A stretch of 64,000 nucleotides of DNA from Ruditapes philippinarum. Taxonomy: Eukaryota. Positions 21,001-60,000 of this stretch are shown here, piece after piece. A program made the position numbers. The stretch is from positions 186,001 to 250,000 of the forward strand of contig NW_026855648.1 of assembly GCF_026571515.1 (NCBI RefSeq), written 5' to 3'. The stretch's first letter is position 1. The number at the start of each line of letters is the position of its first letter.

Positions 21001-24000
21001 CTAGCCTTTGTAAAACCCAAAAACTTTAGAAATATATTATTGGTTTGAATATACATGTATATAAAGGAATAAAGCACAATCAAATTTGACTATAGTTTAT
21101 TCTTTTTCTACTCCATCTTGCAGGCTGCGACTCATAGCGACAACAAGGTGTATCTATGTTTTTGTATTTTAGGTTTATATTTTAAAGCATAATGTCTGTG
21201 ACAGAGGCAACTTTAGACAATTATTACGCGTTGATAAATGTAATATAGTTCATGAATCAGAAATCAGAAAAAAGTTTGTTTAGCTTATCTACAAAAGACT
21301 TTCTCCGAAATCAAGAATATTTTGTGTTTTCCCCAGCTAATCCGGGGTTACCGTTTACAGCTTAGAAAATAATCGAAACAGGTTGACCGGTAGTGCACCG
21401 TTAAGCTTAAACGGTAAAAAGTTGTTTGTACCTGCCCATCTATTGCACGACGTTATTCGTTATGCTAGAAAAGAGGTTCCATCTGAAAATTTATATTCAA
21501 AATAAAAGAATTCCTATCAGTAAATCCTACAATGAAAGCATACTTGAATTTCAACACTAACGTGAATATCTTCCCTTTTAATTCCGTAAAACATAAAACC
21601 AACTAACTTGTACATATTAAAGCAATTTTATTGCTAAAATATTTTATCTCTTAAAGAAAATCTGTTTGTAAACATTCAAGTATTTTCCGTATCTATTTTC
21701 CGTATGTTTTGTATATTCAACGGCATGATTTTATTGTATTTTCGATCTTTAACATTTGAAATATTGAAACCCGTGATGTTAAACATGAAGACACTGATTT
21801 AAAGTACGTGGCAACTTTTTGACAGCCTCATAACACCTGCTTGTTGTTATTATAAAATAGAGAAAATAAGAATACCCAAAAGTAAGCCCAACACGGCAAA
21901 AATTAAAAGTGTTGCAAGCTTGATTCGACTGAACTTGTTCCTGGACGGTACCGTTAAGTTCAAACTATCCTCCACGCCCCTAGCACCGGTTTAAGCAGAT
22001 TCCAACATTTAAACATGAAATGGTAAGATTTTGAATTTAGAAACATCCGCAGATCGATGTGTTCATACGTAAATGACGTCAAGTCAATACATACGAATGG
22101 CAGTGCAGCATCATTTTTTTTCTGAGTCGCAGTTAAGACGTCACGGGTATGTGATGATAAGTCACATGTTACTATAAATATTAACAAATTTAACAAATAT
22201 TTCAACTTGTTATGAATGTCATATGACCGATTATGAGTTTTGTGACACGGGATCATAATCGGCCCGCTTAACATAAGCGCGTGAAAAATCGGTCAAATGT
22301 CAACGCAGTCTAGGCGGGGTTTATAGTAATGATGACTAGATTTTAAGACAAGTTTAACTGAAACGCAAATAATCCTTTATAAATAATGAATCTCAGGCTG
22401 AAGTCCTTGGGGCCATAATTTATTAAGCAAACCAATATTAACCTGCCGGTCCTACTCTGCCGTGTTTTAACCTCTTATTACGTACAGGTATCAGATTTTG
22501 TAAGGGTTCTTAAATCAGTTTAGAAAAGTCATGACCGGGCATAGATTTATACAATTAAATATTGTTTGCTGGCTATTAACACATACAACGGGTCCATAAT
22601 GATCACTTAATGTGTACTTTCAAAATATTGGAACTGTAATTATTGATTATGATTCCATACCTGAACTGTTCTATAAATGTTTATCAATATTTCAATTTCA
22701 CCATTCTTTCCTTTAACAATGGACTGACAATAATACAGTTCTAGTTTACGTAGCGCGTGATTGAACTTTTTGAACGGCTTTTATTATTTGGTTTATCGTC
22801 AGTCAATGGTTTGAGTATTCAAGAAAAAACACTAGTTATGTTAGCCCTGCAATTATGTTTTAATAATTACACGTAAATATGTTTGTGGAAAAAAACAACA
22901 ACAATAACAGCAGCAACAACAAAATGGAAAACAGTCTCTCACTTATTTGGAATAAATATTTCTTTTGCATTTGCATTGCAAATCTAAGGATATATCTCTA
23001 CAATGCCAGTTTATTACTGAAAATATATTTGAATACATCAGCAATATAAAGTGAATCGGGAATGCAGTTTACCGTTTGTTTACCAAAATGTGAGTTCAAC
23101 ATCTTATTTTGTGAATGAATAAATGACAGACTAAATTTCTTAATCGCTAATTGTTTTTCACGTGCATTTTTGGTACATCTGATAATTATTTATCATAAAA
23201 AGCCGAAGGTGACAGAAACCTGCAAACATTCAATTCCCCTTTAGCTTAAAAGTCATGATGAATATTGTGAAATATACTTGTTGTTAATTTTTATACGATG
23301 ATGATAAAATAAGTCAGTTGAAACAATAAAAATCATGTTTTAAGCTGCGATGAAGACCATAATTACAATGGATTACAAACTATTAATCGTGAACTTTTTA
23401 CTATTTCGACTTGAATACATTCACTGCTCAAATATTACACAGGTCGAAAGTTTATACACAAATTTATTCCAGAATTATAACAGGAAACTTTTTCCATTAA
23501 TAAATCACAACAATTCAATGGAAATAAATTTCACGATAGGAATCGTAAGTATAAATAATTTCGATGAGCTGTCTGGTGAAATAGAACTTACAATGTATTT
23601 CACTTTGCAATGGACTGATGAAAACTTGGTATGGACACCATCTCAATATGGCGGCAAATCGGTGTTGTTAGTAGCTCCAGAAGACATTTGGCGACCACAA
23701 CTTTATCTTCTACAATCATATGACACACTCCAGGAGATAAGTAACAATTCAGTCATGGCACGATTATTCTCGAATGGCCAAGTCATGTGGAATATTGGAA
23801 GTGTTTTGAAAATTGTTTGTTCTGTTGACGTGACGTATTTTCCTTTTGATACCCAGACATGTTTATTAATGGTTTCAGGCTGGGCCTACACAAACGAGGA
23901 AGTGTTGTTTTTCGTGAATGATGCAAAAGTAAGTGAAGATTATTTTTACAACAATAGTCAATGGATACTTCAGTCGGCAACGTCACAGAACTATTATGAT

Positions 24001-57000: not shown

Positions 57001-60000
57001 AAATAATTGAAATAATAATAAATAATGAATCTCGGGCTGAAGAACACGGGGCCATTATCTGATTAGCAAAACAATTTTCACCGGTCCTACTCTGCCGTGT
57101 TTTAACCTCTTATAACGTCTACATGTGAGATTTTGTAAGGGTTCTTAATTAAATCAATTTTGAACATGGCGACACTACCTATTAACGCATTAAAACGGTC
57201 CCTAATGATCACTCAATGTGTGCTCTCAACATTATGTTTATTGATCGTGATTCCATATCTAAACTTTTCTATTAATGTTTATCAATATTACAATTGGACT
57301 GATGGACTAACAATAATTCAGTTCTTGTTTTTGTAGCACGTGATTGAAATATTTGAACAGGTATTATTATATATTCCATAGCCAGTCATTGCTTCTATTG
57401 AGTATCCCAGAAAAAACATTTAATTCTGAAAGCCTCGTGAATTAGTTGGACTTTTTTAATCAATTCACTTAAACATATTTGAAAAAAAGTTAAGAATTCA
57501 GAGGATATATATAACAATGTCATTTTTATTTCTGAAAATATTTTAAAACAACAAAAGTAGTATACGAACTGAATCGGAAATATAGTTAACTGTTAGTTGT
57601 CGACATCTGAATGTATGCCTTGTTTTGTGCATAATAAAATGTCGGACTATACAGTATTTCATATATCGTTCCTTGCTTTACACGTGTATTTTGTGAAAGC
57701 GTTTCCGGATTATAATACATGTGAAAGCGTGACAATGTAACTATGAAAAGATATTCATGATAGATCTAGATCTTTTATCATTTGTCAATGACGTGAACCA
57801 GAACCCGAAGATATAAATTACAGTTTAGCGTCTTCTTGAACAGATAAGTACCAAAGTTTGTCTATCAGACGACCATGGAAGTATTCAAGTTCTACATCAG
57901 TTTTTAATATTTTGGTACATCTGGTTATTATTTATCATACTACGCCAAATGTGACAGAAACCTGTAAATATTTAATTCTCTTTAAACTTAAAAGTCGTTT
58001 GAAATATTGTGAAATATATTTGTTGTACATTTATACGATGGCGATACAATAAGTCAGTTGAAACAATAGATAACATAATTAATATGGATTCCAAGCTATT
58101 AATCGTGACTTTTTTACTTTTCAGCTTGAATACATTCACTGCTCAAATATGACACAGGTCGAAGGTTAATACACAAACTTGTTCCAGAACTATAACAAGA
58201 AACTTTTTCCATTGATGAATCACAACAATTCAATGGAAATAAATGTCACGGTAGGTATTAGAAGTATAAATAATTTCGATGAGCTGTCTGGCGAAATTGA
58301 ACTTACAATGTATTTCACTTTACAATGGACTGATGAAAACTTGATATGGACACCTTCTCAATATGGTGGCAAGTCGGTGTTGTTAGTAGCTTCAGAAGAC
58401 ATTTGGCGACCACAACTTTATCTTCTACAATCATATGACACACTCCAGGAGATAACGAATGTATCGTTGATGGCACGGTTGTTGTCGAATGGCCTCGTCA
58501 TGTGGAATATTGGAAGTGTTTTGAAAAGTGTTTGTTCTGTTGACGTGACGTATTTTCCTTTTGATACCCTGACATGTGTATTAATGGTTTCAGGCTGGGC
58601 TTACACAAACGACGAAGTGTTACTTATCGTCAATAATGCTAAAGTAAATGAAGATTCTTTTTCCAACAATAGTCAATGGATACTTCAGTCGGCAACGTCA
58701 CAGAACAATTATGATATAATATCATCATTTCCCCCGACGATTTTTGTGATACTTAAACTAAAAAGACGAAGTGATTTATTTGTAGTGTACATAATATTTC
58801 CAATGGTGTTCTTTGGCCTTATAAATAATCTTGTGTTTGTTATGCCTGCGAATTCTGGAGAGAGGACATCAGTTGCTATAACAGCATTTTTGTCGTTTAT
58901 TGTTTTTATGCAAATGATAAATTCGATTGTTCCTGAGAGTTCAGAACCTATGGCTTATATATATATTATTATATACTTTTTCTATTGGTTTATAGCTCAC
59001 TCATTTTATTTCTATGTATATGCTCGTTATGTATCTATGACAAGGACACACCAGTTCCTCAGTCCATAGAAAAGATGATTTATTGTTTTCGATGTTGGTA
59101 TTTCAAGAGAAACAAAGACAAAGTAACACCTGTGAGGAAAGCATCCATTTTGTCTGAGCAAGTTGACGTTAAAAGCACGAACGAAAAGTTATCATTCAGT
59201 CAAAATGATGAGGATTCTCCTTTAATGACTTGGGTAACGGTTGGTAAGACATTTGATTCCTGCTGCTATGTTCTTTTGTTGATGACATATTTGGCGGTGA
59301 CCATTCACACATTCGTAAAATTGTATTTTAACTACAGTTGCTGAATATTTTTACTTACATTGATATGAAATGTTCTGACACAGTTACTCGATGCGGTAAT
59401 TTCTCTATATGCGTATTATAAGACATAACAATGAAATTCACATTTCTTTGTAATAATGATAATATATAATTATGGCAAACAAATTTATACAAATGTATAT
59501 CTTAAAATGTTTCTTGTGTAAAACGTCAAATTTCAAAATGAAAATGTGAAAAAGCGATGTAAATAAAACTAGATATGTGAAATGATTGTATTTGTTTTTT
59601 TTTTCTTAAATATATAGTGCTTAATATAATGTGTTTAAGAAGTTTAGATGTTTCATAGACATTACATTTTCGTGTTGTTTTCATAAATGAAAATTATGTA
59701 ACAAGAAAGATATATTATACCAGTATACAGATAAAATATTTTCAACGTCAATCTTGTGTTAACATAAATTTACACAGGAACAATATGCAAATGGAGAAGA
59801 GAAATTTGTCAAATGGAAAGCTCGAGGATTCTCAAAATGTTTTAACTATTTACAATAATGATACGAACGAATGACACTAAATTGTATCCAACGTCAAACC
59901 CATAAGGCATGTCTTTTTTCTCATGCCCTTATAATTTATCTTGTCCCCGAAGGAAAAGTCAAGCTAAATGTCAGAGCTGAAATCATTTATTTAAAACAAT

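What the first reader, a model, noticed from the sequence alone, without database searches (positions are those of the whole stretch)
23580..58670. Patchwork exchange of ligand-binding loops among A paralogs (gene conversion or recombination)
Seen: the groupings are incompatible along the gene. In loop D, genes 3+9 have YFTLQWTDE (codon gat) while genes 5+7 have (Y/H)FNFQWIDE (codon gac), so a synonymous site tracks with the block. In loop F, genes 3+7 have NDAKVSEDYF while genes 5+9 have N(S/N)AKVNEDSF. At the N-terminus, 3+7 have VESL..NYNRK while 5+9 have VEG..NYNKK. Around loop E, gene 3 (ISNNSV..GQV) differs from 5, 7 and 9 (ITNVSL..GLV). M1-M3 is nearly invariant. Inference: segmental exchange shuffles complementary-face loops, and pseudogene 9 may act as a donor.
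Basis: partly seen in the sequence, partly recalled or inferred. Interest (0 to 1): 0.68.

Follow-up and report, generated by a model that had tools for sequence, protein, structure and literature searches.

The report
Gene conversion in clam receptor array
Four neighbouring copies of a clam acetylcholine-receptor-like gene mostly follow one family tree, with one short stretch and some larger blocks that look copied between copies, which is the ordinary behaviour of tandem gene arrays.

Summary
The window is a tandem array of intronless Cys-loop receptor genes. The protein database places it on a Ruditapes philippinarum contig.

Most of them are not a patchwork. Of 24 informative sites in the coding sequence, 16 support one tree with A5 and A9 as sisters. 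The flanks agree. That tree explains the loop F and N-terminal groupings.

The real discordance is in loop D. Three A3+A9 versus A5+A7 sites lie within 17 nt (p=0.007). They sit at the edge of a 218-nt stretch, nt 230-447, where A5 and A7 differ at 4 sites, against 32 in the preceding 229 nt. An unbiased breakpoint search recovers this stretch with A5 and A7 as sisters.

Relative branch lengths change along the gene at every fixed partitioning tried (p=2e-5 to 5e-4). Conservative versions of the tests are weak.

The repeat units also switch nearest relative in the A-B spacer.

The best reading is short-tract gene conversion plus unequal crossing-over. It is not targeted to binding loops, and nothing shows pseudogene A9 acting as donor. 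No reads were available, so assembly or polishing artefacts remain untested.

The parts
23368..24618 (+). A3: intact intronless Cys-loop receptor gene (416 codons from this ATG; the public model P0087 starts 6 codons upstream).
   Evidence: ORF. Pfam PF02931 and PF02932. P0087.
36129..37388 (+). A5: intact paralog (419 aa, identical to P0001).
46871..48130 (+). A7: the most divergent A copy. The ORF is intact. The loop B Trp is replaced by Arg (SGRSY). It was not found in the protein database.
58084..59344 (+). A9: pseudogene. It has a 1-nt deletion between 58118 and 58119, an in-frame TAA at 58167-58169, and a 2-bp TA insertion near 58956-58957.
   Evidence: Alignment. ORF breaks. A 284-aa fragment is annotated as P0086.
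36358..36575 (+). A5 side of the candidate conversion stretch (coding nt 230-447: loop D, loop A and most of loop E). The first 76 nt (36358-36433) are identical to A7.
   Evidence: 4 A5-A7 differences here, against 32 in nt 1-229 and 104 in nt 448-1257. Scan p=0.001. Breakpoints at 225/450 with (A5,A7) as sisters.
47100..47317 (+). A7 side of the same stretch. A7 is the probable acceptor.
   Evidence: The direction is inferred from A5-A9 staying at 9 differences in the stretch.
23603..23619 (+). Loop D block in A3 (ACT TTG CAA TGG ACT GAT). The homologous blocks are A5 36364-36380, A7 47106-47122 and A9 58318-58334.
   Evidence: Sites 236, 248 and 252 show the 3,9|5,7 pattern, and site 240 has three states (L versus F).
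23741..23754 (+). A3-private cluster in loop E: 8 changes in 14 nt, mixing synonymous and non-synonymous. Its origin is unexplained.
   Evidence: p=0.0002. No other copy in the window within 3 mismatches.
23168..24643 (+). Sharp-edged block of 89-90% identity between A3 and A5/A9, running from 200 bp upstream of the ATG to 25 bp past the stop. The flanks are about 70-78% identical.
   Evidence: Self-BLAST. Sliding identity.
39550..40340 (.). Zone in unit 2 (A5-B6 spacer) where the nearest relative switches from unit 4 to unit 1. This marks the unit-level crossover. The homologous zones are 27850-28775 and 61518-62432.
   Evidence: Three-way site counts. Identities.
33880..34223 (+). Relic of an A7-type promoter plus the first ~75 nt of coding sequence. 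It is 84.7% identical to 46595-46945, truncated, and carries an in-frame TGA.
52846..54153 (-). C8: frameshifted pseudogene of a more distant paralog type (about 70% nt identity to the A copies). It served as the outgroup. An intact relative, P0005, lies on the same contig outside the window.
30776..32110 (-). B4: second receptor family of the repeat unit, in inverted orientation. Its partners are B6 (41412-42749) and B10 (63391-64000, cut by the window end).

Best explanation
The region is a young tandem array of intronless nicotinic-receptor-like (Cys-loop) genes in a venerid clam. It is built from repeat units that carry an A gene (+ strand) and a B gene (- strand).

The four A copies mainly follow one duplication tree. 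A5 and A9 are sisters, A3 comes next, and A7 is the most distant. That tree alone accounts for the loop F and N-terminal groupings.

Non-allelic homologous recombination is superimposed at three scales.

1. Unequal crossing-over made hybrid repeat units, with the switch in the A-B spacer.
2. The A coding sequences are more alike than their flanks. This fits older homogenisation, seen most clearly in the 3' half of A3.
3. A short gene-conversion tract of about 76-218 nt (coding nt 230-447) made A7 nearly identical to A5. A5 is the probable donor. The tract carried loop D, loop A and most of loop E as passengers.

Shown: the site patterns, the divergence profiles and the switch between units. 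Inferred: the mechanism (conversion or crossover), its direction, and that the assembly is correct. The A3 loop E cluster is a private multi-nucleotide change of unknown origin, either an unsampled donor or a complex mutation.
For: **Family.** Every A and B copy matches PF02931 and PF02932. The best solved-structure matches are nAChR subunits (E=2.5e-46).

**Main tree.**
- 16 of 24 informative sites support (3,7|5,9).
- Outside nt 230-447 the alternative topologies are rejected (AU p=0.016).
- Unit 2 and unit 4 flanks are 88-98% identical. Unit 1 flanks are 72-89% identical to them.

**A5/A7 tract.**
- A5 and A7 differ at 4 sites in nt 230-447, 32 in nt 1-229 and 104 in nt 448-1257. In the tract, A5-A9 differ at 9 sites and A7-A9 at 11.
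- A5-A7 dS is 0.044 in codons 76-149, against 0.46 in codons 1-75 and 0.28 in codons 150-235. A3-A5 dS stays at 0.10-0.27 across all five regions of the gene.
- The site-pattern scan gives 4 of 27 variable sites differing inside and 135 of 187 outside (p=0.001).
- The longest-shared-fragment test gives p=1e-4, or 6e-4 after correction for 6 pairs.
- A breakpoint search on a 45-nt grid puts breaks at 225, 450 and 1035, with (A5,A7) as sisters in 226-450. AICc falls from 5712.7 to 5661.6.
- Separate trees beat a rate-scaled single tree (AICc 5665.8 against 5696.4).

**Whole gene.**
- One rate-scaled tree was compared with unlinked branch lengths at 2, 3, 4, 5 and 6 equal parts. The p values are 2.6e-4, 3.2e-4, 3.5e-5, 5.2e-4 and 2.3e-5.
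- PHI with C8 added gives p=0.0068 at w=100.
- In the synonymous-site scan, all 3 pairs with A7 give p=0.001-0.006 and all 3 pairs without A7 give p=0.16-0.83.

**Units.** The counts of odd-one-out sites (U1:U4:U2) switch from 84:2:5 and 41:6:5 to 8:47:4 and 13:68:13 across the spacer. Inside the A coding sequence they change from 31:11:8 in the 5' half to 8:21:14 in the 3' half.
Against: **Conservative versions of the tests are weak.**
- After merging same-pattern sites 3 nt or less apart, the A5-A7 scan gives p=0.034. That does not survive correction for 6 pairs.
- Without A3, the conditional scan gives p=0.14.
- The synonymous-only test of the nested tract gives p=0.24.
- Inside the tract the main topology is not rejected (AU p=0.33), and bootstrap support for (A5,A7) is 65%.
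- PHI on the four A copies alone is not significant (p=0.35-0.39 at w=50 and 100, and 0.96 at w=200). With C8 added it gives p=0.17 at w=200.
- The A7-private share over 7 fixed bins gives p=0.06, or 0.94 after merging clustered sites.
- BIC supports at most one breakpoint and prefers no partition.

**The tests assume independent sites, and that assumption is violated.** Multi-nucleotide clusters are common: 11 observed against 7.1 expected.

**Other limits.** The tests are my own implementations, not the published programs. Lineage- and region-specific selection could also change relative branch lengths. No reads or second assembly were available, and A7 has no independent record.
Confidence: 0.68

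Rival explanations
1. There has been no exchange inside the coding sequence. The four genes follow one tree. Loop D is parallel change (homoplasy) under similar selection. The uneven divergence comes from region- and lineage-specific constraint together with multi-nucleotide mutations.
For: - The main topology is not rejected in nt 230-447 (AU p=0.33).
- PHI on the four copies is not significant.
- The tests on merged clusters, on three taxa and on synonymous sites alone are weak.
- Clustered private changes occur on every lineage.
- FNF in loop D also occurs in the B-type genes, so it can arise repeatedly.
Against: - Four co-varying sites within 17 nt, one of them a synonymous GAT/GAC site, would each need two hits.
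- A5-A7 divergence drops about 7-fold exactly next to them, while A3 keeps its normal distance there: 21 differences to each of the other copies.
- The branch-length test is significant at all 5 fixed partitionings.
- Recombination between units outside the coding sequence is plain.
Confidence: 0.18
2. The pattern is an assembly or polishing artefact. Reads from one paralog were mis-mapped onto another during consensus polishing, or two haplotypes were laid out in tandem, creating false mosaics.
For: - The A copies are 88-94% identical, close enough for mis-mapping.
- All database records of these proteins come from this one 491,392-bp contig.
- A7 has no independent record.
- From my own knowledge, bivalve genomes are highly heterozygous.
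Against: - A7 keeps two private changes (nt 308 and 355) inside the stretch.
- Units 2 and 4 are 22 kb apart, separated by a different unit, and differ by frame-breaking lesions.
- The window has no gaps.

None of this is decisive.
Confidence: 0.08
3. Binding-loop modules on the complementary face are actively shuffled among paralogs as an adaptive diversification device, and pseudogene A9 serves as a donor store.
For: - Loops D, E and F vary at 17 of 56 codons, against 4 of 37 for loops A, B and C (nominal p=0.04).
- The discordant sites lie in loop D.
- A3 carries private clusters in loops E and F.
Against: - Loops overall are no more variable than the rest of the domain: 21 of 93 codons against 25 of 118 (p=0.87).
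- 9 of 11 clusters lie outside the loops, mostly in the M3-M4 loop and M4.
- The tract spans framework strands as well as loops.
- No fragment specific to A9 was found.
- A9 shares loop D with A3. Two outgroup proteins (YLQW in P0003 and P0006, QWTDE in P0006) and C8's GAT codon point to that state as ancestral, though C8 agrees with A5/A7 at site 236.
Confidence: 0.04

Closest known systems
Expanded intronless, tandemly arrayed nAChR genes of bivalves (Jiao et al. 2019, BMC Genomics 20:937, PMC6896357; I saw the abstract and passages through a term search)
   Same: These are intronless Cys-loop receptor genes in a tandem array in a bivalve. Many copies lack the alpha-type vicinal cysteines, and pseudogenes sit among them.
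   Different: [quoted passage not shown] A term search of its main text found 0 occurrences each of 'gene conversion', 'recombination' and 'positive selection'. Ruditapes is not among its species (0 occurrences). I could not see its supplements.
Interlocus (non-allelic) gene conversion and unequal crossing-over in tandem gene families, for example globins, opsins and Hsp70 (recalled general knowledge; PMC5865164 was seen only as a search listing)
   Same: The signatures match. A short tract of near-identity lies between neighbouring same-strand paralogs and is bounded by diverged sequence. Coding sequences are more alike than their flanks. Repeat units are hybrids.
   Different: Here the statistical support for the individual tract is moderate. 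The direction is inferred, and there are no population or read data.
Pseudogene-templated diversification, for example chicken immunoglobulin V genes and CYP21A2/CYP21A1P (recalled, no call)
   Same: A pseudogene sits in the array next to functional copies.
   Different: There is no evidence that the pseudogene donated sequence, and no loop-bounded tracts.

Membership tests
Cys-loop (pentameric) ligand-gated ion channel, nAChR-like | An N-terminal ligand-binding domain followed by a transmembrane domain | tested here: met
   PF02931 (E=1.7e-42 to 2.5e-45) and PF02932 in A3, A5, A7 and A9. The best solved-structure hits are nAChR subunits.
Cys-loop (pentameric) ligand-gated ion channel, nAChR-like | A Cys-loop: two cysteines 13 residues apart | tested here: met
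   CSVDVTYFPFDTQTC is present in A3, A5 and A7. A9 has CSVDVTYFPFDTLTC.
nAChR alpha-type subunit | Vicinal Cys-Cys in loop C | tested here: not met
   In the alignment to the Torpedo-type alpha subunit, the position of its CC reads SF in A5. No CC occurs in loop C of any A copy. Whether acetylcholine is the ligand was not tested.
Interlocus gene conversion tract | A stretch of markedly lower divergence between two paralogs, bounded by normally diverged sequence | tested here: met
   A5-A7 differ at 4 sites in 218 nt, against 32 in the preceding 229 nt. Scan p=0.001, or 0.034 after merging clustered sites.
Interlocus gene conversion tract | The tree of the tract conflicts with the tree of the rest of the gene | tested here: inconclusive
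   (A5,A7) is the best tree in the tract. However, the main tree is not rejected there (AU p=0.33), while (3,9|5,7) is rejected outside (p=0.016).
Interlocus gene conversion tract | Synonymous sites share the pattern, so selection on the protein is not the cause | tested here: inconclusive
   The GAT/GAC site tracks the block. A5-A7 dS is 0.044 in codons 76-149. The scan-corrected synonymous test gives p=0.24.
Interlocus gene conversion tract | Confirmed in reads or in an independent assembly | not testable with these tools
   No eukaryotic read or genome collection was available. The protein records come from the same contig.
Unequal crossing-over between tandem repeat units | The nearest-relative relationship between units switches along the unit | tested here: met
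   The U1:U4:U2 odd-site counts change from 84:2:5 to 13:68:13 across the A-B spacer.
Pseudogene-donor diversification | Tracts in functional copies that match the pseudogene specifically | tested here: not met
   A3-A9 and A5-A9 show no significant fragment (p=0.26 and 0.23).

The most novel reading that the evidence does not exclude
Gene conversion and unequal crossing-over may be a general, so far undescribed force in the very large lophotrochozoan nAChR expansions. They would keep coding sequences of neighbouring copies alike while flanks diverge. Their passenger tracts would move pocket-lining residues, such as the loop D position that aligns with residue 57 of vertebrate subunits, between subunits. 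If so, 'lineage-specific expansions' inferred from protein trees would look partly too young, and binding-site variants could spread across an array without new mutation.
Probability: 0.3. Interest if true: 0.45.

Novelty: new member of a known kind. Interest (0 to 1): 0.3.

Why it matters
Bivalves carry one to two hundred nAChR-like genes whose origin has been described as retroposition followed by tandem duplication (PMC6896357). Exchange between neighbouring copies has two consequences.

First, trees and duplication dates built from coding sequence are biased towards young ages. Here the A3 coding sequence is 89-90% identical to A5 and A9, while its flanks are about 70-78% identical.

Second, residues that line a putative binding pocket can be transferred as blocks.

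For this window the practical message is narrower. Most of the apparent patchwork is ordinary tree structure. One short tract is a reasonable conversion candidate. The idea of a loop-shuffling device with a pseudogene store has no support.

Tried and rejected
**Donor searches**
- Donor for the A3 loop E cluster inside the window: a 20-nt search with up to 3 mismatches found only the site itself.
- Donor or further A-type copies in the protein database: nothing lies between 65% and 90% identity to A3, or between 64% and 84% to A7. The 90% cluster holds only the three records from this contig.

**Tests that gave no or weak signal**
- PHI on the four copies: not significant.
- Three-taxon conditional scan: not significant.
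- Nested synonymous scan: not significant.
- Fixed-bin test for A7: p=0.06.

**Ideas that did not hold**
- Binding loops as hot spots of variation: not supported.
- A9 relaxed for a long time: its private N/S ratio is 1.36, like A3 (1.19) and A5 (1.38). The lesions are therefore probably recent.

**Failed runs**

**Not usable or not checked**
- Genome contigs holds only bacteria and archaea, and the phage, plasmid and E. coli collections are irrelevant, so none was searched.
- Supplements of papers were closed.
- No structure was predicted, because the tool returns no coordinates to map residues on.

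
Full report
**What the window holds.** The window has about 31% G+C and no N. It contains ten single-ORF genes or gene remnants of the Cys-loop receptor family.
- Two B-like genes lie on the + strand, at 13590-14867 and 17408-18838.
- Four repeat units follow, each with an A-type gene on the + strand and another gene on the - strand:
  - A3 (23368-24618) with B4 (30776-32110);
  - A5 (36129-37388) with B6 (41412-42749);
  - A7 (46871-48130) with C8 (52846-54153);
  - A9 (58084-59344) with B10 (63391 to the window end).

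All copies tested match PF02931, and all but the 264-aa C8 fragment also match PF02932. The best solved-structure matches are nAChR subunits (E=2.5e-46). The protein database holds A5, A3 and a fragment of A9 as records from one 491,392-bp contig. It names a neighbour on that contig as Ruditapes philippinarum. The nearest other proteins are 65% identical and come from Mercenaria.

A9 is a pseudogene with a 1-nt deletion between 58118 and 58119, a TAA at 58167-58169, and a TA insertion near 58956. C8 is a frameshifted copy of a more distant type.

The A proteins lack the vicinal cysteines of loop C, so they are not alpha-type subunits. Their ligand is unknown.

**The observation.** The four coding sequences have 213 variable sites in 1257 ungapped columns. 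Of these, 84 are private to A7, 35 to A3, 34 to A9 and 20 to A5, and 16 have more than two states. The other 24 are informative: 16 group A3+A7 against A5+A9, 5 group A3+A9 against A5+A7, and 3 group A3+A5 against A7+A9.

**Most of the 'patchwork' is one tree.** The loop F and N-terminal contrasts (3+7 against 5+9) are the majority pattern. The flanks support it independently. Units 2 and 4 are 88-98% identical from upstream of the A gene through about 4 kb downstream, while unit 1 is 72-89% identical to them. The three-way site counts there are, for example, 84:2:5. The outgroup proteins have the aromatic residue of A3/A7 in loop F (DY or DF), which makes the DS of A5/A9 a shared derived state. 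Outside nt 230-447 the two alternative topologies are rejected (AU p=0.016).

**The real discordance.** Sites 236, 248 and 252 are three of the five A3+A9 versus A5+A7 sites, and all three lie within 17 nt of loop D. A fourth site between them has three states and splits Leu from Phe the same way. The clustering gives p=0.0074.

These sites sit at the 5' edge of a stretch, coding nt 230-447, where the pairwise differences are:
- A5-A7: 4 in the stretch, against 32 in nt 1-229 and 104 in nt 448-1257;
- A5-A9: 9 in the stretch;
- A7-A9: 11 in the stretch;
- A3 to each of the others: 21 in the stretch.

A5-A7 dS is 0.044 in codons 76-149, against 0.46 before and 0.28 after. A3-A5 dS stays between 0.10 and 0.27 across all five regions of the gene.

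Several tests point the same way:
- The site-pattern scan singles out nt 236-446 for A5-A7 (p=0.001).
- The longest-shared-fragment test singles out nt 375-446, at the 3' end of the stretch, for the same pair (p=1e-4).
- A breakpoint search over a 45-nt grid, blind to this stretch, places breaks at 225, 450 and 1035. It returns (A5,A7) as sisters in 226-450. AICc falls from 5712.7 to 5661.6.
- Against a single tree with a rate factor for each part, separate trees still gain 30 AICc units.

A5 stays close to A9 inside the stretch. A5, or a copy like it, is therefore the probable donor and A7 the acceptor. The reverse direction would have made A5 as distant from A9 as A7 is elsewhere. This direction is an inference.

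**How strong is it?** The support is not overwhelming.
- After merging same-pattern sites 3 nt or less apart, A5-A7 remains the only pair with a signal, but at p=0.034 before correction for six pairs.
- Dropping A3 gives p=0.14.
- The synonymous-only test of the nested stretch gives p=0.24.
- The main topology is not rejected inside the stretch (AU p=0.33), and bootstrap support for (A5,A7) is 65%.
- PHI on four sequences is not significant (p=0.35). With C8 added it gives p=0.0068 at w=100, 0.03 at w=50 and 0.17 at w=200.
- BIC supports at most one breakpoint.

A test with no post-hoc choice is clearer. I cut the gene into 2, 3, 4, 5 or 6 equal parts and compared one rate-scaled tree with unlinked branch lengths. 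This gives p=2.6e-4, 3.2e-4, 3.5e-5, 5.2e-4 and 2.3e-5. At synonymous sites, all three pairs that include A7 are heterogeneous (p=0.001-0.006) and the three pairs without A7 are not.

All these tests are my own implementations. They assume independent sites, which the frequent multi-nucleotide clusters violate.

**Larger scales.** The repeat units are themselves recombinant. Up to about 39550 in unit 2, its nearest relative is unit 4. From about 40340 it is unit 1, with odd-site counts of 8:47:4 and 13:68:13.

The A3 coding block from 23168 to 24643 is 89-90% identical to A5 and A9, with sharp edges. Its flanks are about 70-78% identical. Within the coding sequence, A3-private sites fall from 31 in the 5' half to 8 in the 3' half, while A5-private sites rise from 8 to 14. 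This fits older homogenisation of the 3' half. It also partly explains why M1-M3 looks invariant, alongside purifying selection (dN 0.014-0.046).

A7 shares no alignable promoter with the others. A truncated copy of its promoter and signal peptide lies at 33880-34223.

**What is not supported.**
- The loop E contrast is an A3-private cluster of 8 changes in 14 nt, some of them synonymous (p=0.0002). It has no template in the window or in the protein database. It is not an exchange among the four copies.
- Loops are not hot spots. 21 of 93 loop codons vary, against 25 of 118 in the rest of the domain (p=0.87). Loops D, E and F vary somewhat more than A, B and C (17 of 56 against 4 of 37, nominal p=0.04).
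- Of 11 multi-nucleotide clusters, 2 lie in loops. Most are in the M3-M4 loop and M4.
- No fragment is specific to A9. In loop D the outgroups are mixed. C8's synonymous GAT and the YLQW/QWTDE motifs of two outgroup proteins favour the A3/A9 state as ancestral, but C8 agrees with A5/A7 at site 236.

**Literature.** The paper on bivalve nAChR expansions describes intronless genes in tandem arrays arising from retroposition and tandem duplication. A term search of its main text found no mention of gene conversion, recombination or positive selection (PMC6896357, abstract and passages). Its supplements could not be seen. Three further full-text searches returned no listed paper on gene conversion among molluscan Cys-loop receptor genes. 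I read the listings only.

**Verdict.** The best explanation is ordinary non-allelic recombination in a tandem array: unit-level crossing-over, homogenised coding sequences, and one candidate short conversion tract from A5 into A7 that happens to include loop D. An assembly or polishing artefact could not be tested.

Noticed in passing
window 46871-48130 (A7), codons 172-173: A7 reads SGRSY where the other A copies read SGWAY. The loop B tryptophan, which aligns with the agonist-binding Trp of the solved alpha subunit, is replaced by arginine. The ORF is intact, but no record of this protein exists in the database.
   Followed up: partly
window 33880-34223: A truncated relic of an A7-type promoter plus the first ~75 nt of coding sequence. 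It is 84.7% identical to 46595-46945 and carries an in-frame TGA. It lies between B4 and A5 and suggests that an A7-type gene was lost from that position.
   Followed up: partly
window 30776-31385, 41412-42021, 63391-64000 (B4, B6, B10): In the last ~610 nt of the B coding sequence, B6 is the odd one out at 18 sites, B4 at 10 and B10 at 11. The adjoining spacer makes unit 4 the clear outlier (13:68:13). The B genes therefore also disagree with their flanks.
   Followed up: partly
window 52846-54153 (-): C8 is a pseudogene with frameshifts near 53359 and about 53220. A nearly identical intact gene (P0005, named alpha-5-like, R. philippinarum) lies on the same contig outside the window.
   Followed up: partly
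window 58170-59069: The public annotation carries a 284-aa protein (P0086) that is an internal ORF of pseudogene A9 and ends in out-of-frame residues.
   Followed up: yes
window 47979-47990 (A7, M3-M4 loop): Eight A7-private changes fall within 11 nt (KLFIQNDVD against KLSFSQ.VD). This is the same kind of tight multi-nucleotide cluster as in A3 loop E, but it lies in the cytoplasmic loop.
   Followed up: partly
window 3324-4438: A tandem repeat with a period of about 162 nt and copies 84-93% alike, seen in the self-comparison.
   Followed up: no
window 341-919: A tandem repeat with a period of about 70 nt and copies about 85% alike. It gives long repetitive ORFs on the minus strand.
   Followed up: no
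window 10323-10985 (-): An ORF with weak integrase matches (rve E=4.8e-6, Integrase_H2C2 E=5.8e-5, both below Pfam's cut-offs). It is probably a decayed retrotransposon.
   Followed up: no
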